In this document: one piece after another, positions 4,197 to 10,754 of the stretch
Numbering within the stretch: the first letter of the stretch is position 1
How the letters are laid out: each line of letters opens with the position of its first letter
Origin: an uncultured Candidatus Saccharibacteria bacterium
Lineage (GTDB): Bacteria > Patescibacteriota > Minisyncoccia > Phycocordibacterales > PALSA-1337
NCBI GenBank assembly: GCA_964403205.1
Contig: CAYOER010000001.1
Span: 14,037-78,036 of the forward strand
Direction of reading: 5' to 3'
Length of the DNA stretch: 64,000 nucleotides
The notes under the pieces: model-generated
What the model saw: the letters and a program-made list of their open reading frames with translations, nothing else
Databases searched by the model: none
Told to the model about the DNA's origin: nothing
Program-made: the position numbers and the translations under genes

Positions 4197-5180
4197 TTAT
4201 TTTTTTAATATTTTCTTATCAAAAACATTCTTTTCATCAATATGCTGATGTAAATTCTTTATTTCCTGATATGCATTATTGAGGTCTTTTGTTAATTCCC
4301 TAATCTTCTCCATTTGATACATTCCATTTATTACATTTTTAATAAGGGTAATACCTATAAATATAGATATGATAAATACAGCAATACTTATGTATAGTTC
4401 ATTACTATTTTCAGAAAGAATTGTACGGAATAAAAGAAATATCCAAAGTATAAAAATAGCTGTTTCAATTGCAATGATTTTTATATTGAAAAGTCTGTGC
4501 TTTGTGATGGCGTAGGAGATAATAGAAATCCATATAATACTTGAGAGCGGGCTTGTCCAATCATAATTAAATATACCTAATCTCGGTAACACGAGACTAG
4601 TAATTAATGGTGGTATAAATCCAATTATAAATACTATAATCATGAAATTAAGATTTATTATGATTTGCTTATCAATAGTTTCTCTCAGTTTTTTATATAT
4701 AATATTTATCCCAATTAAAAAAATTGTAATAAAATTAATATCGAAAATAAACCAAAGTGGACCATATTCCCAACTTGGATAATTATTACTCTGTATCGTT
4801 ATAACATTACCAATAATTAAATTTGTAAAGAATAATAGATAGAAAATTAATATTAATGATAATATTAATGGATATACAATATTATCTTGTATTTTATTTT
4901 CATACGGGTATGAAATTACAAATAATAAGAATATATTAACCATTATAAATGCTAGAAAATAACTTAATTTTATAACTAAATTTGTCATATATATATCTTC
5001 TGTCATTACTGATAAATTAGCTATTCCTATAATAAAGCTCCACATAGAAAGAAAGAGAGATAAATATGAAAATAAACGTACTGACTGAATTTTTTTACCT
5101 AAATAATATAAACCTATTGAAAAAACAATAAGTATAGCTCCAGCTGACCAATCAATAATTGAATGTAAATTTGTATCCAT
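4197..5180 (-). CDS. polytopic membrane protein resembling the N-terminal sensor module of the adjacent histidine kinase, but lacking the kinase core
   Basis: Seven or more predicted TM helices followed by a coiled-coil tail. It shares the K(H/Y)RLFNIK motif plus a following TM helix with the histidine kinase at 6848-8440. No H-box or ATPase motifs. Confidence 0.45.
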   Translation of the reverse strand: MDTNLHSIIDWSAGAILIVFSIGLYYLGKKIQSVRLFSYLSLFLSMWSFIIGIANLSVMTEDIYMTNLVIKLSYFLAFIMVNIFLLFVISYPYENKIQDNIVYPLILSLILIFYLLFFTNLIIGNVITIQSNNYPSWEYGPLWFIFDINFITIFLIGINIIYKKLRETIDKQIIINLNFMIIVFIIGFIPPLITSLVLPRLGIFNYDWTSPLSSIIWISIISYAITKHRLFNIKIIAIETAIFILWIFLLFRTILSENSNELYISIAVFIISIFIGITLIKNVINGMYQMEKIRELTKDLNNAYQEIKNLHQHIDEKNVFDKKILKK

Positions 5181-5321
5181 AAGTTTTAATTTAACATTAT
5201 ATCCATTTTAAATAAATATCAATTATTTACTTAAATGTTGTACTTAATGTATAATAATAAGAAAATGACTGAGTTCTATTTAGTATTTTATAATATTAAA
5301 TAATTCAATAACTTAATTAAT

Positions 5322-6026
5322 ATGTTAACACCAAGATTTTGGAAGAGATATTTTGAGGAATATGATTTGTTAAATGAACTTACTCCGTACAGAGAATTAT
5401 TAGATGCGATTTGTGTACGTGCTAATATTAATACTGGTAACAACATACTTGATGTAGGTTCTGGTACTGGAAATTTATCTATAAAACTTGAGAAGTATGG
5501 TGCGATTGTAACAGGTATAGATTTTTCCAAGGAAGGACTAGAAATTCATAGGAAAAAATCAAATATAACAGAGTTAATTTATGGGGATATTAATCAACCA
5601 CTTCCTTTTTCTAATGACCAGTTTGAAACGGTTGTTTCAAATAATGTGCTTTATACCGTTTCTAGGAATGAACGTTTAACTGTAATGAAAGAACTTTATC
5701 GTGTTCTTAAACCTGGAGGTCGTATTATTGTTTCTAATGTGGTTGAGGGTTTTAGGCCACATGTTATTTATTTTGATCATGTCAATAGTCTTATTAAAAA
5801 AATAGGTATTTTTAAAGCTTTTATTGTTGTATTGAAATTATCTCGGTCGACGATTAAGATTTTATATTACAATTATAAGATTAATATGGAAAATAGACAC
5901 GGTGTGTATGATTTTTTTGGTTTAGGAGAACAGAAGAAATTACTAGAGGAATCAAAGTTTAAGAATGTGTCAGAAGACTATATTTTATATAGTGGTCAAG
6001 CTGTTTTAAATTGGGGTATAAAATAG
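5322..6026 (+). CDS. class I SAM-dependent methyltransferase
   Basis: Motif I ILDVGSGTGNLS, a post-I acidic residue (GIDFS), and LKPGGRIIVSN. Confidence 0.7.
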   Translation: MLTPRFWKRYFEEYDLLNELTPYRELLDAICVRANINTGNNILDVGSGTGNLSIKLEKYGAIVTGIDFSKEGLEIHRKKSNITELIYGDINQPLPFSNDQFETVVSNNVLYTVSRNERLTVMKELYRVLKPGGRIIVSNVVEGFRPHVIYFDHVNSLIKKIGIFKAFIVVLKLSRSTIKILYYNYKINMENRHGVYDFFGLGEQKKLLEESKFKNVSEDYILYSGQAVLNWGIK

Positions 6027-6089
6027 GTGATTATTTTCCATCATGTTAGGATTAAGATATATTAATAATAATGTTATAATATTTTTATC

Positions 6090-6842
6090 ATGGTTGTATA
6101 TAGAAGTTTAAAAATTTGCAGTAATAACTTATACGAAACTATTGTATTCGGAGAAGCAATAACAAATGAAGAACTTCAGGAAGTATATCGTTTCCGTTAT
6201 GATGTATATTCTGATAAAGATTATATTGACAAGGATAAATATTCTTACGGAATTGAAAAAGATGAATATGATGAACAGAGATTCTGTCGTTATTTTGTTG
6301 CAAAAATTAATGAGAGGTTAATTGGTACGATAAGAATTATTACATGTGACCCTCTTCCGACTGAGTATAGTTTTTCTTTTGAGGAACCAGAAATTATGAA
6401 ATCTATTCCACGATCTCAACGTGTAGAACTTGGTAGGTTTATTATAATTTCTCCGTACAAACAGAATGGAATTTATCTACCTCGTGGCCTAGTTATGTTA
6501 TTTTTGTTAGATATTCTAAGTTCATATGGTCTTAGAAATAATTTTTTAGGAGGTTATGCTTTTATTAAAACAAGCTTAGAGCGTAAAATGAATAAATTAA
6601 ACTTACCTATCAGAAAAATACCGATTTATCATCAAATATATCCTAAACAAGGAATTCTTTATAAATATTTTACACAAAAAGATGATCCAGTTATTCCTAT
6701 CTATTTTTTGACCAAAGATTTTGCAGATTATTCGAATTCAAGAATCAGAAATTCGTTAATGTTCAGTAAAATTAATGATAACGATTATGTGCTGCATAAT
6801 AATTTATATACTCAATTTTTGAAAATGCTTAAAATTATTTAA
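6090..6842 (+). CDS. putative GNAT-fold N-acyltransferase (N-acyl amino acid synthase / autoinducer-synthase-like)
   Basis: YRFRYDVYSD...YDE-x-RFCRYFVA...LIGTIRII...VELGRFIIIS resembles the LRY-VF/EDE-D/ELSR pattern of FeeM/PEP-CTERM-associated N-acyl amino acid synthases. The assignment is from memory of the family pattern only. Confidence 0.35.
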   Translation: MVVYRSLKICSNNLYETIVFGEAITNEELQEVYRFRYDVYSDKDYIDKDKYSYGIEKDEYDEQRFCRYFVAKINERLIGTIRIITCDPLPTEYSFSFEEPEIMKSIPRSQRVELGRFIIISPYKQNGIYLPRGLVMLFLLDILSSYGLRNNFLGGYAFIKTSLERKMNKLNLPIRKIPIYHQIYPKQGILYKYFTQKDDPVIPIYFLTKDFADYSNSRIRNSLMFSKINDNDYVLHNNLYTQFLKMLKII

Positions 6843-6847
6843 ATATA

Positions 6848-8440
6848 ATGGATACCTTTATTTTCTCAATTTTATCTGTAGTTGCTGTTACTAATATAAT
6901 ATTAGGGGGTATTATTTTTTCACGCGGTCTTAAAGTGTTTTCAAATATTTTATTTGGGCTTATAGCATTAACTGCAGCTATTTGGAGTATTGCCATTGTT
7001 GGCTTTTATTCAGAGCAATTTGGAGGAGCTATAAATTGGGTATTATTTACACATACTGCAGCTATACTCATTTCATCATTTTTTTTAGCATTTTCAGTCA
7101 ATTTTCCTCAAAAATTACCAAATAGAAATTATATAATTTCAATTTCAGCAATAGTTACTTTTTTATTAGTCTTTTTTATCTTCTTTAGTGATTATATTGT
7201 TGGTAACACAGAAAATAATACCTATTTTATAGGTATTGCTTATTCGGTCTATGCTTTTTTTATTAGTATTTTTTTTATATCAGGTTTTTTATTTTTATGG
7301 GAACAACTGAAATTATCTAATGATAGTAATCAAAAGAAACAAATTAAATATATATTTGTAGGCACACTTATTTCTTCTGTTCTTGCTATTATACCTGATT
7401 TGATTTTACCTTATTTCAATATTTTTCAATTTACTTGGTTAGGCCCTATTTTTACTCTAATAATGGTCGTTTCTCTTTTTTTAGCTATGCTTAAATATCG
7501 TCTCTTTAATATTAAGGTAGTTTTGACTGAAGTTATAAGTGTTTTGATTGTGATGGCTTTGTTAGTAGAATTATTATTAGCCCAGACACCAACAGAGATC
7601 TTACTTAAATCAGTTGTCTTAGCTATTGTAACAGTATTTAGTTTTTTACTTATCAAAAGTGTTATCAAGGAGGTCGCTCAGCGTGAAAATATTGAAAAAC
7701 TTGCTATAGAACTTCAAAAAGCTAATGATAGATTGAAGGATCTAGATAAACAGAAAAGCGAATTCGTCTCTTTTGCTACACATCAGCTTCGTGCGCCACT
7801 TACTGCTATGAAGGGTTATGCTTCGCTCATACTGGAAGGTGATCTCGGTAATATATCAGAGGAAATTAGGAATGCTATTTCGAGAATATTCAATTCATCA
7901 GAAACATTGACACATATTGTAGATGATTATCTCAATATTTCCAGAATCGAACTCGGTACTATGAAATATACTTTTGAAAATCTAGATTTGAGGGAGCTTG
8001 TGGATGATGTTATAGCAGAGCTCAAACCAAATATAGAAAAGAGTGAGACTAAACTTTCATTTATAGTAGATAGACAGAAGAAATTCCTAGTTCGTGCTGA
8101 TAAAGATAAATTTAAGCAGATTATTGCAAATATAATAGATAATTCTGTCAAATATACAAAGGCGGGTATAGTTACAGTCAAACTTGATAAAATAGATAAT
8201 ATTAAAATATTATTATCAATTAAGGATAATGGTATAGGTATAGCACCAGAGATTATGCCGAGACTCTTTGCAAAATTCTCCAGAGCTGATAATGCAAATA
8301 AGAAAAATATACATGGCACTGGACTAGGACTCTTCGTAGCAAAGGAAATAGTCAATGCACATAGGGGACGTATCTGGGCCGAATCCGAGGGAGAAGGGAA
8401 GGGCTCGATATTCTTTGTAGAATTGGAGGGAGGGGAATAG
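6848..8440 (+). CDS. sensor histidine kinase (polytopic N-terminal membrane domain, HisKA, HATPase_c)
   Basis: H-box THQLRAPLTAMKGY; N/G boxes DNGIGIAPEIMPRLFAKF and GTGLGLFVAKEIV; an N-terminal ~270 aa with multiple TM helices. Confidence 0.85.
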   Translation: MDTFIFSILSVVAVTNIILGGIIFSRGLKVFSNILFGLIALTAAIWSIAIVGFYSEQFGGAINWVLFTHTAAILISSFFLAFSVNFPQKLPNRNYIISISAIVTFLLVFFIFFSDYIVGNTENNTYFIGIAYSVYAFFISIFFISGFLFLWEQLKLSNDSNQKKQIKYIFVGTLISSVLAIIPDLILPYFNIFQFTWLGPIFTLIMVVSLFLAMLKYRLFNIKVVLTEVISVLIVMALLVELLLAQTPTEILLKSVVLAIVTVFSFLLIKSVIKEVAQRENIEKLAIELQKANDRLKDLDKQKSEFVSFATHQLRAPLTAMKGYASLILEGDLGNISEEIRNAISRIFNSSETLTHIVDDYLNISRIELGTMKYTFENLDLRELVDDVIAELKPNIEKSETKLSFIVDRQKKFLVRADKDKFKQIIANIIDNSVKYTKAGIVTVKLDKIDNIKILLSIKDNGIGIAPEIMPRLFAKFSRADNANKKNIHGTGLGLFVAKEIVNAHRGRIWAESEGEGKGSIFFVELEGGE

Positions 8441-8441
8441 T

Positions 8442-10250
8442 GTGATACAATATTTCCTTATGAAAAAATTAGGGGAAAATGTGTCCAATGCTCAAGTTAT
8501 AAAGCATATGTGGAACGGTACAAAATCATATCGTCCATATTTTTCTATATCCTATATTCTATTTAATTTAGCTAATATTATAGGTATATTAGTACCACTT
8601 TATTATAAAGATTTCTTTGATATTCTCAGTAAATCAGATGATCGTGCATTACTCGTTCCATCACTTATAAAGATTGTAATAATAATAGCTATTATACATT
8701 TTACAACATGGTTAATCTGGAGGATTGGTACATATTTCTATAATAAATCAGTATCAAGAGTTATGGCACTTTTGAAACAGAATGCTTTTGATTATATGAT
8801 GCGTCATTCTTATAACTTTTTTACCAATAATTTTACCGGTAGTCTAGTACAGAGATTAAATAGATTCAGCCGTGCTTTCGAAGCATTGAATGATACTCTA
8901 GTATTCAATATTTTCCCTCTGATTATAGCTATAGTAAGCTCTATAATAGTTACATATTTCATAGCACCTATTATTTCTCTTGTAATTACAATATGGGTTA
9001 TATTATTTATGATATTTAATATTTCTTTTTCAATTTGGAAATTGAAATATGATACAGCTGTGGCTGAAGCGGATTCTCGTACTAGTGGTTATCTATCTGA
9101 TTCTATTACTAATAATAATGCTATTATGCTTTTCACTGGTAATAGATATGAAACAATAGGATTCAATAAAGTATCAGATGATCAATCAAATAAAACCTTT
9201 CTAACCTGGACATTGAATGAAGTTTCAGATGCAGTGCAAGTAATTCTTATTGGTACTGTAGAATTTTTTGTATTTTATTTTTCTATTAAGTATTGGCAGA
9301 ACGGTCTAGCTACAGTCGGTACATTCGTATTGGCACAGACATATATTATAGGACTTTCACATCAGCTATGGGGTGTTGGTAGAGCTGTACGCAAGATCTA
9401 TGAAAGCTTTGCAGATTCAAAGGAAATGGTAGGAATATTAGAAATGCCATATGAGGTAAAGGATATACCAAATGCAAAAAATATTATTGTGAAAAATGGT
9501 GAAATAATCTTCAAAAATGTAACTTTTGCCTTCAATGAAACAAGAGAAGTAATAAAAGATTTAAATATTACAATAAAATCTGGTGAGAAAATAGCTATTA
9601 TAGGACCATCTGGAGCGGGGAAGACGACTTTTATTCGTCTTATTATGAGATTATACAATATAACATCTGGATCTATCTCCATTGATAATCAAGATATACA
9701 TACTGTAACTCAAGACAGTCTAAGAGATAATATAAGTCTCGTCCCTCAGGATCCTGTACTTTTTCACCGTACTCTCTTAGAGAATATCCGTTATGGAAAA
9801 AGAAATGCAAATGATGAAGAGGTGATAGAGGCAGCCAGACTAGCGCATTGTGATGAATTCATAGAAACTTTACCATTGAAATATAATACCTATGTCGGCG
9901 AGCGTGGAATAAAGCTTTCTGGTGGAGAACGTCAGAGAGTAGCTATTGCTAGAGCAATATTGAAGAAAGCTCCAATACTCATATTAGATGAGGCTACATC
10001 TAGTTTAGACTCTCATTCTGAAGCTCTGATACAGGATGCATTGGACAATCTTATGAAAAATTGTACAACTATTGTTATTGCTCATCGTCTATCAACAATA
10101 AAGAAAATGGATAGGATAATAGCCATGAAAGATGGGAAAATAGTAGAAGAGGGAACACATGATGAACTTGCAAATATGGATAGTGGATTATATAAAAAGT
10201 TATGGGATCTGCAGGTAGGTGGGTTTATAAAAGAAGAGGAAGGGGAATAG
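8442..10250 (+). CDS. ABC exporter, fused permease plus ATPase (MsbA/bacteriocin-exporter type without a peptidase domain)
   Basis: Six N-terminal TM helices; Walker A GPSGAGKTT; signature LSGGERQRVAIARA; Walker B ILILDEATS; H-loop IAHRLS. Confidence 0.85.
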   Translation: MIQYFLMKKLGENVSNAQVIKHMWNGTKSYRPYFSISYILFNLANIIGILVPLYYKDFFDILSKSDDRALLVPSLIKIVIIIAIIHFTTWLIWRIGTYFYNKSVSRVMALLKQNAFDYMMRHSYNFFTNNFTGSLVQRLNRFSRAFEALNDTLVFNIFPLIIAIVSSIIVTYFIAPIISLVITIWVILFMIFNISFSIWKLKYDTAVAEADSRTSGYLSDSITNNNAIMLFTGNRYETIGFNKVSDDQSNKTFLTWTLNEVSDAVQVILIGTVEFFVFYFSIKYWQNGLATVGTFVLAQTYIIGLSHQLWGVGRAVRKIYESFADSKEMVGILEMPYEVKDIPNAKNIIVKNGEIIFKNVTFAFNETREVIKDLNITIKSGEKIAIIGPSGAGKTTFIRLIMRLYNITSGSISIDNQDIHTVTQDSLRDNISLVPQDPVLFHRTLLENIRYGKRNANDEEVIEAARLAHCDEFIETLPLKYNTYVGERGIKLSGGERQRVAIARAILKKAPILILDEATSSLDSHSEALIQDALDNLMKNCTTIVIAHRLSTIKKMDRIIAMKDGKIVEEGTHDELANMDSGLYKKLWDLQVGGFIKEEEGE

Positions 10251-10271: not shown

Positions 10272-10754
10272 TTAAAGTATTTTATTAATTTCATTAAAAT
10301 AATCTTTACTTAATCTATGTCCTGTATTAGGTACAATAATATCTCCTGATTCATTTTCTTTATCACCATACATTATTGTCTGTTTATTCGCTAGATGTAT
10401 TGGATTGATATTTTTAATTATATCATTTACAAACTTTAAACCAGTTATATTTATTAGTTCTTTTATCATTTTCTTATCTTTCCAATAATAATATGGTGTC
10501 ATAGAAGCTAATATTATGTGTTTACATTCATAATTCTGTGCTATTAACCATGCCAAAACTGCACCTAATGAAAAACCGATAATTATGGCATCTTTAGATA
10601 CAGGAAAAATCTGTGATGATAGTTCTTTATTCCAATCTACATTTTTATGTACCACTTCATAGCCCTTTTTTTCAGCAATTTCTGCTAGTAGTTGATATGG
10701 TTTACGTTTACAGGTTTCTTCCCATCCTGGTATGATATATATGATTTTTTTCAT
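10272..10754 (-). CDS. small alpha/beta-hydrolase-fold serine hydrolase (GxSxG esterase-like)
   Basis: Nucleophile elbow GFSLGA and a ~160-aa alpha/beta pattern with a C-terminal His (NTGHRL). Confidence 0.5.
   Translation of the reverse strand: MKKIIYIIPGWEETCKRKPYQLLAEIAEKKGYEVVHKNVDWNKELSSQIFPVSKDAIIIGFSLGAVLAWLIAQNYECKHIILASMTPYYYWKDKKMIKELINITGLKFVNDIIKNINPIHLANKQTIMYGDKENESGDIIVPNTGHRLSKDYFNEINKIL

What the first reader, a model, noticed from the sequence alone, without database searches (positions are those of the whole stretch)
4197..10250. Candidate signalling neighbourhood: kinase-less copy of the HK sensor module, SAM-MTase, NAS-like acyltransferase, orphan sensor kinase and ABC exporter
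The 327-aa membrane protein and the N-terminal half of the histidine kinase share the K(H/Y)RLFNIK-TM-coiled-coil architecture. This suggests the sensor domain was duplicated, with one copy lacking any catalytic core (a decoy, co-sensor or scaffold). Between them lie a methyltransferase and a GNAT-fold enzyme resembling N-acyl amino acid or autoinducer synthases. The kinase gene is immediately followed (2-nt gap) by an ABC exporter, and no response regulator is encoded nearby. A produce-export-sense circuit for a small acylated signal is a plausible, untested reading.
Basis: inference. Interest (0 to 1): 0.5.

Follow-up and report, generated by a model that had tools for sequence, protein, structure and literature searches.

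The report
Lipid-signal synthase paired with membrane sensors
An ultra-small (Patescibacteria/CPR) bacterium carries a conserved gene cassette in which two enzymes probably make a methylated fatty-acyl amino-acid compound next to a GPCR-like membrane sensor kinase matched to them, plus a conserved kinase-less copy of the sensor; this looks like a self-made-signal circuit, and the ABC exporter is a recent add-on.

Summary
The 327-aa membrane protein (4197-5180, -) and the N-terminal half of the kinase (6848-8440, +) are homologous HisKA_7TM modules (BLASTP 3e-21; z = 12.6 against local shuffles). The 250-aa protein is a LuxI/FeeM-type GNAT by Pfam and by fold. No response regulator lies in the 64 kb.

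The conserved unit is MTase + GNAT + 7TM kinase, found in 17 distinct Patescibacteria loci. GNAT and MTase are fused in both orders in other genomes.

Two reciprocal natural swaps tie the sensor module to the synthase:
- Same synthase: the sensor is kept and the kinase core is replaced.
- Synthase replaced by an alpha-oxoamine synthase: the sensor is replaced and the kinase core is kept.

The ABC exporter is a lineage-specific insertion. The kinase-less protein is an ancient paralog, not a recent duplicate. It is full-length or ATPase-less elsewhere. A 325-aa relative ending at the same point gives dN/dS of about 0.16, so it is a functional gene.

A PlsC-like acyltransferase that often accompanies the cassette keeps a membrane-aminolipid reading alive.

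The LuxI-homolog/kinase synteny in CPR was published in 2020. The MTase partner, the swaps and the kinase-less sensors were not mentioned there.

The parts
4197..5180 (-). TM327: kinase-less sensor paralog (HK2 lineage). It has a HisKA_7TM core, the KHRLFNIK motif, two more TM helices and a truncated signalling helix. It has no DHp and no ATPase domain.
   Evidence: Pfam PF16927 at 7.6e-10. Homologous to the HK1 N-terminus at 3e-21 and survives shuffle controls. Colinear with the CA-less orthologs P0035 and L004_HK2, and ends about 45 residues before their H-box. The 325-aa relative in L027 has the same end, 58% identity and dN/dS about 0.16. It keeps 69% of family-conserved positions, which is within the range of full-length HK2s.
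5181..5321 (.). Divergent intergenic region between TM327 and the MTase. It presumably holds both promoters.
   Evidence: Sequence layout. There are promoter-like hexamers at 5226-5255 and 5265-5294, but the scan is not above shuffle expectation in this AT-rich DNA. This is inference only.
5322..6026 (+). Class I SAM-dependent methyltransferase (UbiE/Methyltransf_11 type). It is the pathway partner of the GNAT.
   Evidence: Pfam. Co-located with the GNAT in every locus, in either gene order. Fused to the GNAT as GNAT-MTase (L006, P0064, P0080) and as MTase-GNAT (P0159). The substrate is not assignable: PDB and NCBIfam hits are generic.
6090..6842 (+). LuxI/FeeM-type GNAT N-acyltransferase (N-acyl amino acid synthase-like).
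   Evidence: Pfam FeeM, Acetyltransf_5 and Autoind_synth all above cut-off. TIGR03694 at 2.5e-14 but below its cut-off. AF2 model with pLDDT 92. Foldseek top hits are LasI 8e-9, BjaI, MesI, FeeM 5e-7, EsaI, RpaI and TofI, ahead of generic GNATs. The invariant residues R36, D58, D61, R82, E113 and R116 align with LasI core residues. The family has 124 clusters at E <= 1e-30.
6848..7747 (+). HK1 sensor module: 9 TM helices (a GPCR-like 7TM bundle plus a TM8-TM9 hairpin) running into a coiled coil.
7748..8440 (+). HK1 transmitter: HisKA (H-box His312) + HATPase_c. It is exchangeable relative to the sensor.
   Evidence: Pfam. Identity to the closest cassette relatives L020 and L022 is only 29% and 27%, while their sensors are 73% and 67% identical. 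It is 60-64% identical to L003/L004/L005/L007 and 63% to L028.
8442..10250 (+). MsbA-like ABC half-transporter. It is probably co-transcribed here but is a lineage-specific addition.
   Evidence: Pfam and NCBIfam. There is a 1-nt gap and a GGAGG before the GTG. It is absent next to the cassette in all other loci; relatives lie 3.3 kb away in L007 and 2.4 kb away in L010. It sits in an insertion between HK1 and YqeY relative to L004/L025/L005.

Best explanation
The core is a three-gene produce-and-sense module that is conserved in Patescibacteria.

Proposed mechanism:
- The LuxI/FeeM-type GNAT couples a fatty acyl thioester to an amino compound (inferred).
- The SAM methyltransferase methylates that product. 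The most economical reading is esterification of the carboxylate, giving a neutral product like an N-acyl amino acid methyl ester (inferred).
- This membrane-partitioning product is recognised inside the bilayer by the GPCR-like 7TM module of the kinase encoded immediately downstream (inferred from comparative evidence).
- The kinase signals through an unlinked response regulator.
- TM327 is a conserved kinase-less member of a second sensor lineage encoded divergently at the same locus. It most likely binds the same or a related ligand, or pairs with a kinase-competent partner. It would then act as a modulator (co-sensor or sink) and not as a transmitter (inferred).
- The ABC exporter was added only in this lineage. 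At most it is an accessory exporter here.

What is shown: homology of the parts, their conservation, the fusions, the module swaps, and purifying selection on TM327.

What is not shown: the chemistry, ligand binding, and whether the molecule acts between cells.
For: - A 7TM sensor lies directly next to MTase + GNAT in 17 distinct loci, down to 35-40% GNAT identity, with both gene orders of MTase and GNAT.
- GNAT-MTase and MTase-GNAT fusions both exist.
- Pairwise GNAT identity correlates with sensor-module identity (rho 0.86, Mantel p = 0.0002). It does not correlate with the kinase core (rho 0.04, p = 0.36).
- First swap: L020 and L022 keep the synthase (70% and 68%) and the sensor (73% and 67%) but carry a different kinase core (29% and 27%).
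- Second swap: the positionally orthologous L028 has an alpha-oxoamine synthase in the synthase slot. It keeps the kinase core (60-71%), but its sensor is only 26-29% identical, against 50-53% among GNAT-type loci. Genome distance is equal by the YqeY yardstick.
- The GNAT fold is closest to AHL synthases and FeeM.
- The sensor has a GPCR-like 7TM bundle with almost no extramembrane loops.
- The kinase-less form is conserved with dN/dS about 0.16.
- Known precedents for a synthase next to a multi-TM kinase: PhcB methyltransferase with PhcS (PMC8578825), and CqsA with CqsS (PMC7567580).
Against: - There is no biochemical evidence for the product, the site of methylation or ligand binding.
- Synthase and sensor module are physically adjacent. 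Co-inheritance and joint replacement could therefore reflect recombination blocks and not ligand matching.
- A PlsC-like O-acyltransferase lies within 8 kb in about 10 loci and is apparently operonic in 5. That is the hallmark of membrane aminolipid pathways (PMC11631085).
- No response regulator is linked: only 1 of about 19 loci has one adjacent.
- CPR bacteria generally lack fatty-acid synthesis (own knowledge), so the acyl donor is unclear.
- The relative of TM327 in L027 is not next to a cassette, so its link to this pathway is not obligatory.
Confidence: 0.5

Rival explanations
1. Membrane aminolipid pathway with an envelope sensor. The GNAT acts like OlsB/GlsB and N-acylates an amino acid with a 3-hydroxy fatty acid. 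A PlsC-like enzyme acts like OlsA and adds a second acyl chain. The MTase methylates the head group, as OlsG or PmtA do. The 7TM kinase monitors the resulting membrane state, in the manner of DesK, and does not detect an intercellular signal.
For: - The GNAT passes the PF13444 cut-off, and that domain is shared by all aminolipid N-acyltransferases (PMC11631085).
- A PF01553 acyltransferase with NHxxxxD and FPEG motifs lies directly upstream on the same strand in L001, L006, L007, L008 and L010. One lies nearby in L004/L025, L013, L020, L030 and L003, and also beside HK2-type genes in L015 and L028.
- The sensor has essentially no extracellular domain.
Against: - No PlsC-like gene exists anywhere in this 64-kb window, yet the cassette is intact. 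None is seen near L005, L023 or L024.
- NCBIfam gives no OlsB or OlsF match for the GNAT. Its best match is the NAS family TIGR03694.
- A sensor of general bilayer state would not need to be replaced when the synthase type changes.
- The PlsC-like gene could be the housekeeping PlsC, kept nearby by synteny.
Confidence: 0.27
2. Regulator-next-to-target. The kinase senses an external or host-derived cue unrelated to the enzymes and merely controls expression of the adjacent biosynthetic genes. The enzymes are the output, not the source of the ligand.
For: - Regulators are commonly encoded next to their targets.
- Strict adjacency and co-inheritance are also expected under this model.
- The HK2 sensor cores diverge fast (23-34% identity), as expected for sensors of variable external cues.
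Against: - The sensor module, not the transmitter, is what stays with the synthase in both natural swaps.
- No response regulator or DNA-binding output is encoded with the unit.
- Every characterised synthase next to a multi-TM kinase that I compared (PhcB/PhcS, CqsA/CqsS) is an autoinducer pair.
Confidence: 0.13
3. A canonical acyl-homoserine-lactone system. The GNAT is a true LuxI-type AHL synthase, as annotated in some MAGs and proposed by Bernard et al. 2020, and the kinase plays the role of a LuxN-like AHL receptor.
For: - Autoind_synth scores just above its cut-off, 24.8 against 24.
- The best sequence and fold matches among solved structures are LasI, BjaI, MesI and RpaI.
- The LuxI core residues R, D, D, R, E and R are conserved.
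- The sensor has nine TM helices, as reported for LuxN (own knowledge).
Against: - FeeM and TIGR03694 (NAS) score higher than Autoind_synth.
- The position equivalent to the LasI N-terminal Trp is Ile46.
- An obligatory, sometimes fused, methyltransferase has no role in AHL synthesis.
- One family member is fused to a HisC-like PLP enzyme, which suggests a separately made amine acceptor.
- There is no LuxR-type or LuxN-type match.
Confidence: 0.1
4. TM327 is a decaying remnant of a kinase that was truncated by the rearrangement that brought in the toxin-antitoxin module. On this reading it has no function.
For: - HK2 orthologs are longer elsewhere, at 401-565 aa.
- The 3' end of TM327 abuts a region that differs from the syntenic loci: the PlsC-like gene is replaced by MntA-HepT.
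- No DHp remnant is left in the 71-nt spacer.
Against: - A 325-aa relative with the same C-terminal end exists at 58% identity. dN is 0.31 and dS about 1.9, giving dN/dS about 0.16, with no frameshifts.
- The ORF is intact over 327 codons in DNA of about 25% GC.
- It keeps 69% of family-conserved positions, as many as full-length HK2s.
- ATPase-less 7TM-DHp proteins with a clean domain boundary recur. There are three in tandem in L017, and one is the only sensor next to the cassette in L024.
Confidence: 0.15

Closest known systems
Ralstonia phc quorum sensing (PhcB methyltransferase + PhcS sensor kinase)
   Same: A SAM-dependent methyltransferase makes a methyl-esterified fatty-acid-derived signal. 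A membrane histidine kinase encoded in the same operon senses it (PMC8578825, PMC11960443).
   Different: - Here a LuxI/FeeM-type GNAT is an obligatory, sometimes fused, partner of the MTase.
- No response regulator is encoded alongside.
- Homology of the MTase to PhcB and of the sensor to PhcS was not tested, because no reference sequences were available.
CqsA/CqsS and LqsA/LqsS (alpha-hydroxyketone signalling) and LuxM/LuxN
   Same: - An autoinducer synthase is encoded next to a polytopic membrane kinase that binds the lipophilic signal within its TM domain.
- In L028 an alpha-oxoamine synthase of the BioF/Kbl/SPT/CqsA family occupies exactly the slot held here by MTase + GNAT.
   Different: - The sensor belongs to Pfam HisKA_7TM, with a GPCR-like 7TM bundle plus two helices.
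- NCBIfam gives no CqsS or LuxN match.
- The synthase chemistry in this window is N-acylation plus methylation, not Claisen condensation.
CPR 'LuxI homolog / putative sensory kinase' pairs of Bernard et al. 2020 (PMC7567580)
   Same: This is the same gene family and the same synteny. That study reported 36 LuxI homologs in CPR, 18 of them next to a sensory kinase, in groups including Taylorbacteria, Yonathbacteria and Saccharibacteria.
   Different: - That study interprets the enzymes as AHL synthases.
- 'Methyltransferase' occurs nowhere in its text or held supplements.
- A term search of that paper and its held supplements also turned up nothing on the fusions, on the sensor tracking the synthase, on the kinase-core swaps or on kinase-less sensor paralogs.
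[quoted passage not shown]
   Same: They give the best HMM matches for the GNAT, share its fold, and share the E...R catalytic strand.
   Different: - The TIGR03694 score is below the family cut-off (53 against 112 bits).
- No exosortase or PEP-CTERM context was seen, and no dedicated ACP gene.
- The protein carries an extra N-terminal beta-hairpin and a C-terminal extension of about 50 residues.
OlsB/OlsA (and GlsB/GlsA) aminolipid synthesis with OlsG-type methylation
   Same: A PF13444-type N-acyltransferase, a PF01553 O-acyltransferase in many related loci, and a methyltransferase (PMC11631085).
   Different: - No O-acyltransferase is present in this window.
- There is no OlsB or OlsF model hit.
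- A strictly linked sensor kinase is not a feature of the known ols and gls loci (own knowledge).

Membership tests
LuxI-type AHL synthase (PF00765) | Pfam gathering score reached | tested here: met
   24.8 bits against a cut-off of 24.0. This is marginal, and it is weaker than FeeM at 37.6.
LuxI-type AHL synthase (PF00765) | Fold and conserved core residues (Arg, Asp, Asp, Arg, Glu, Arg; N-terminal Trp of the SAM pocket) | tested here: inconclusive
   LasI is the top fold hit at 8e-9. R36, D58, D61, R82, E113 and R116 are invariant and align with LasI. The Trp position is Ile46, next to the invariant Tyr45. FeeM shares most of these residues, so they do not discriminate between the two families.
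LuxI-type AHL synthase (PF00765) | Cognate LuxR-type (or LuxN-type) receptor | tested here: not met
   tblastn with NarL found no LuxR/NarL-type HTH in the 64 kb. The sensor module gives no LuxN match in NCBIfam.
LuxI-type AHL synthase (PF00765) | Produces an acyl-homoserine lactone from SAM and acyl-ACP or acyl-CoA | not testable with these tools
   This needs expression followed by LC-MS or a biosensor assay.
N-acyl amino acid synthase (FeeM PF21926 / TIGR03694) | Family HMM cut-offs | tested here: inconclusive
   PF21926 is met, at 37.6 bits against 27. TIGR03694 is the best NCBIfam hit (2.5e-14) but scores 53.3 bits against a cut-off of 112.
N-acyl amino acid synthase (FeeM PF21926 / TIGR03694) | PEP-CTERM/exosortase context or a dedicated ACP partner | not tested
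   None was noticed among the window ORFs that were scanned. About half of the window's ORFs were not scanned.
OlsB/OlsA-type aminolipid pathway | PF13444 N-acyltransferase | tested here: met
   29.2 bits against a cut-off of 22.4.
OlsB/OlsA-type aminolipid pathway | Adjacent PlsC-type (PF01553) O-acyltransferase | tested here: not met
   There is none in the window (tblastn, best E = 0.11). One is present within 8 kb in about 10 related loci.
HisKA_7TM sensor family (PF16927) | Pfam gathering score for the 7TM region | tested here: met
   TM327 scores 39.4 bits against 28.6. HK1 itself gives no hit at E < 0.1, but it is homologous to TM327 (3e-21), and its orthologs P0043-P0047 carry PF16927.
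Two-component sensor histidine kinase | DHp with phospho-acceptor His, plus a CA domain with N, G1 and G2 boxes | tested here: met
   HK1 has HisKA at 1.9e-14 and HATPase_c at 1.7e-26, with His312 in HQLRAPL. DNSVKYT, DNGIGI and GTGLGL are read from the translation. TM327 has none of these.
Two-component sensor histidine kinase | Cognate response regulator encoded alongside | tested here: not met
   There is none in the 64 kb. A regulator is adjacent only in L014, out of about 19 loci.
CqsS/LqsS-type alpha-hydroxyketone sensor | Sequence membership of the TM sensor domain | tested here: inconclusive
   There is no NCBIfam hit at E <= 10. Bernard et al. report hits of their own CqsS N-terminal HMM to these CPR kinases, at 1e-9 to 6e-13.
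ABC exporter as a system component | Conserved association with the synthase/sensor genes | tested here: not met
   It is adjacent only in the window. A relative lies within 8 kb in 3 of about 19 loci. Here it sits in an insertion relative to L004/L025/L005.

The most novel reading that the evidence does not exclude
Patescibacteria use a private chemical language. [quoted passage not shown] That module can be plugged onto different kinase cores, or used without any kinase as a co-receptor or decoy. The GNAT + MTase pair would then be the first genetic basis for N-acyl amino acid methyl ester biosynthesis, for which no genes are known (PMC11580390).
Probability: 0.2. Interest if true: 0.8.

Novelty: new variant of a known kind. 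Interest (0 to 1): 0.58.

Why it matters
CPR/Patescibacteria are tiny, mostly uncultured episymbionts with stripped-down metabolism. A dedicated, widely conserved synthase-plus-sensor module in such genomes implies that making and detecting a lipid-like molecule is central to how they live with hosts or with each other.

- The comparative data give a concrete, testable ligand-receptor hypothesis: express two genes, identify the product, and test it on one kinase.
- They offer a natural example of modular rewiring, in which sensor, transmitter and synthase are each swapped independently.
- They point to a class of kinase-less 7TM sensor proteins.

Tried and rejected
- Response-regulator search of the window with four receiver queries found nothing.
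- tRNA and Rfam scans of the window found nothing.
- The promoter and terminator scan was not above shuffle expectation in this AT-rich DNA, so it was uninformative.
- The first genome scan, with the 32-sequence alignment, failed for lack of a conserved stretch. It was repeated with 10 closer sequences.
- Alpha/beta-hydrolases seen near several cassettes (window 10272-10754, L001, L020, L023) were tested as a possible conserved esterase. They are not homologous to one another, so the idea was rejected.
- MTase specificity could not be assigned. PDB and NCBIfam hits are generic class I MTases: UbiE, ArsM, BioC, PmtA and Mtf2, all far below cut-offs.
- The fusion partner of P0127 was suspected to be CqsA-like, but it is HisC/CobD-like.
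- The afdb50 fold library was unavailable.
- NCBIfam scans of the sensor modules gave no CqsS or LuxN hit.
- The HK2 sensor cores showed no clear dependence on synthase type. They diverge fast everywhere.
- The idea that the cassette had moved relative to the CysRS/CorA/L9 block (from L020) was dropped once L025, L004 and L005 showed the window is in the ancestral position with insertions.

Full report
**What is there**

The region holds five ORFs exactly as described:
- a 327-aa membrane protein on the minus strand, TM327 (4197-5180)
- a SAM methyltransferase (5322-6026)
- a 250-aa GNAT (6090-6842)
- a 530-aa histidine kinase, HK1 (6848-8440)
- a 602-aa ABC half-transporter (8442-10250)

The last four lie on the plus strand and are tightly packed.

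Pfam assigns them as follows:
- TM327 to HisKA_7TM
- the MTase to Methyltransf_11/25
- the GNAT to FeeM, Acetyltransf_5 and Autoind_synth, all above their cut-offs
- HK1 to HisKA + HATPase_c
- the transporter to ABC_membrane + ABC_tran

[quoted passage not shown] The score is below that family's cut-off.

Names attached to GNAT homologs place the organism in Patescibacteria (Paceibacterota, Yonathbacteria).

**The two membrane modules are homologous**

- BLASTP gives E = 3e-21 over 318 columns at 26% identity.
- The Smith-Waterman score is 287. Shuffles within 12-residue windows give 82 +/- 16, and an unrelated membrane domain of the same window scores about 61.
- Both reader-specified refutation tests (GNAT assignment, membrane-domain alignment) are therefore passed.
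- No receiver domain occurs in the 64 kb.

**The conserved unit**

I fetched loci through the GNAT family. MTase and GNAT are always together, in either order. A 7TM kinase directly follows them in 17 distinct loci, down to 35-40% GNAT identity. The exceptions:
- L024 has a convergent 7TM-DHp protein without an ATPase domain instead.
- In L031 the kinase is split.
- L002 is short and shows no kinase.
- L009 carries a second MTase-GNAT pair.

An exhaustive profile search finds 124 clusters at E <= 1e-30. Among them are GNAT-MTase fusions (P0064, P0080, and L006 read directly) and an MTase-GNAT fusion (P0159). Fusions in both orders are strong evidence that the two enzymes work on one pathway.

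**The sensor goes with the synthase; the transmitter does not**

- Over 12 loci, GNAT identity correlates with identity of the kinase's sensor module (Spearman 0.86, Mantel p = 0.0002). It does not correlate with the kinase core (0.04, p = 0.36).
- The closest relatives, L020 and L022, share the synthase (70% and 68%) and the sensor (73% and 67%). Their DHp/ATPase part is unrelated in type (29% and 27%).
- The reverse case is L028, on an 856-kb contig. Its locus is positionally orthologous: the PlsC-like gene, HK2, HK1 and YqeY all match.
- In L028 the synthase slot holds an alpha-oxoamine synthase of the BioF/Kbl/SPT/CqsA family instead of MTase + GNAT.
- There the kinase core is as similar to the window's clade as those genomes are to each other (60-71% against 60-69%). 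The sensor module is only 26-29% identical, against 50-53% within the clade. The neighbouring YqeY shows equal genome distance.
- Both breakpoints fall in the linker after TM9.
- Physical linkage alone could produce joint replacement. Two reciprocal events at the same domain boundary are better explained by selection to keep a synthase with its matched sensor.

**Structures**

- The GNAT model (pLDDT 92) is closest to LasI, BjaI, MesI, FeeM, EsaI, RpaI and TofI, ahead of generic GNATs.
- The family profile reaches LasI by sequence at 1.3e-4. The invariant residues R36, D58, D61, R82, E113 and R116 align with the LuxI core.
- The sensor model (pLDDT 88) has nine helices: a 7TM bundle, a TM8-TM9 hairpin, and a helix continuing into the coiled coil.

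**The kinase-less protein**

TM327 is not a recent copy of its neighbour. It belongs to a second sensor lineage, HK2, which is transcribed divergently from the cassette. The forms of HK2:
- a full kinase in L003, L005 and L028
- 7TM + DHp without the ATPase domain in L004/L025 (416 aa), L015/P0035 (401 aa, 46% identical to TM327) and L024
- three tandem copies of the ATPase-less form in L017

The ATPase-less forms all end at the same boundary after DHp helix 2, and they keep the H-box His.

TM327 is colinear with these forms and stops about 45 residues before the H-box. A metagenome scan found a 325-aa relative in L027 with the same C-terminal end. It is 58% identical, with dN 0.31, dS about 1.9 (near saturation) and dN/dS about 0.16. 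TM327 keeps 69% of family-conserved positions, as many as full-length HK2s. So the kinase-less architecture is maintained by selection.

The L027 copy sits next to a different gene. It comes from the same sample as a contig identical to the window, so it may be a paralog in the same genome.

**The ABC exporter**

The window is syntenic with L004/L025/L005. The shared order is HK2, cassette, YqeY, RmuC, RecR, DnaB, CysRS. Relative to those loci:
- ABC, a small hydrolase-like ORF and a Nudix gene are inserted between HK1 and YqeY.
- A glycosyltransferase island is inserted between YqeY and RmuC.
- A fused MntA-HepT module and other genes replace the PlsC-like gene beyond HK2.

The 1-nt gap and the GGAGG before the GTG suggest co-transcription here. 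The exporter is still not part of the conserved system.

**The rival that matters**

A PF01553 PlsC-like acyltransferase accompanies the cassette in about 10 loci and is apparently operonic in five. An N-acyltransferase plus an O-acyltransferase is the signature of ornithine, glycine and glutamine lipid synthesis (PMC11631085). Adding a methyltransferase would give methylated aminolipids.

Against this reading:
- The window has no such gene in 64 kb.
- The GNAT scores best with NAS models, not with OlsB or OlsF models.
- The sensor changes with the synthase type.

I keep this rival at about 0.27.

**Comparison with the literature**

- Bernard et al. 2020 (PMC7567580) reported 36 LuxI homologs in CPR, 18 of them next to a putative sensory kinase, in some of the same candidate phyla. 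They read them as AHL systems. 'Methyltransferase' does not occur in their text or held supplements.
- Functional analogues are PhcB/PhcS, CqsA/CqsS and LuxM/LuxN.
[quoted passage not shown] A NAS-like GNAT that is obligatorily paired or fused with a SAM MTase is a natural candidate, but this is inference.

**Verdict**

- This is a new variant of the known 'synthase next to a polytopic sensor kinase' kind.
- Part of it was already noted in the literature. The MTase partner, the module swaps and the kinase-less sensors appear to add to it, though only that one paper was checked.
- The chemistry and the signalling role remain inferred.

Noticed in passing
L028:1233-7062 (856-kb metagenome contig Ga0265338_10000002): The locus layout matches the window, but an alpha-oxoamine synthase (BioF/Kbl/SPT/CqsA family, 409 aa) replaces MTase + GNAT between the two 7TM kinases. 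The kinase core is conserved and the sensor module has diverged.
   Followed up: yes
L017:5568-9212: Three tandem genes of about 404 aa encode HisKA_7TM + DHp proteins with no ATPase domain. Two tandem full-length 7TM kinases lie nearby. This looks like a recurrent class of ATPase-less sensor proteins in Patescibacteria.
   Followed up: partly
window:3262-4125 (+): A single ORF fuses an MntA-like nucleotidyltransferase antitoxin domain with a HepT-like RNase toxin domain (type VII TA). It sits where related genomes carry the PlsC-like gene, at the truncated end of TM327.
   Followed up: partly
window:22171-24867 (-): A replicative DnaB helicase is interrupted by an intein with a LAGLIDADG homing-endonuclease domain (898 aa). 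The syntenic DnaB in L025 is 481 aa and has no intein.
   Followed up: no
window:12661-19621 (+): An island of a nucleotidyltransferase, several glycosyltransferases (GT1, GT2/GT9 fusion), a pyruvyl transferase, an RMKL-like methyltransferase and DUF4254 is inserted between YqeY and RmuC. Those two genes are adjacent in L004, L025 and L005.
   Followed up: partly
window:30802-32574 (+): A second MsbA-like ABC half-transporter, about 25-32% identical to the one at 8442-10250. It could be a heterodimer partner or be unrelated.
   Followed up: no
P0127 (617 aa, from the exhaustive GNAT-family search): A GNAT of this family is fused to a HisC/CobD-like PLP-dependent aminotransferase or decarboxylase. 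This hints that in some lineages the amine acceptor is made by a dedicated enzyme.
   Followed up: partly
L009:5854-8944: MTase-GNAT is followed by a second, different methyltransferase (293 aa, Methyltransf_31) and a second GNAT of the same family. This is a tandem pair of synthase modules, and the contig ends before any kinase.
   Followed up: no
L002, L008, L011 (contigs of 2.5-3.4 kb): Cassette-bearing contigs are binned to Pontiellaceae, Bacteroidales and Methylococcaceae MAGs. They are short and may be mis-binned Patescibacteria DNA, not evidence of a wider taxonomic range.
   Followed up: no
window:36-3102: A 650-aa protein with BNR/Asp-box-like repeats has only a weak Pfam hit. A 346-aa N-terminally anchored protein with no family match lies upstream of the TA module. 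Neither is present in the syntenic loci.
   Followed up: no
L027:891-1871 (-): A 326-aa protein has a hydrophobic N-terminal half and no Pfam match. Its C-terminal half looked GNAT-like by eye. It is encoded divergently from the 325-aa kinase-less 7TM protein, in the position that the MTase occupies in the window.
   Followed up: partly
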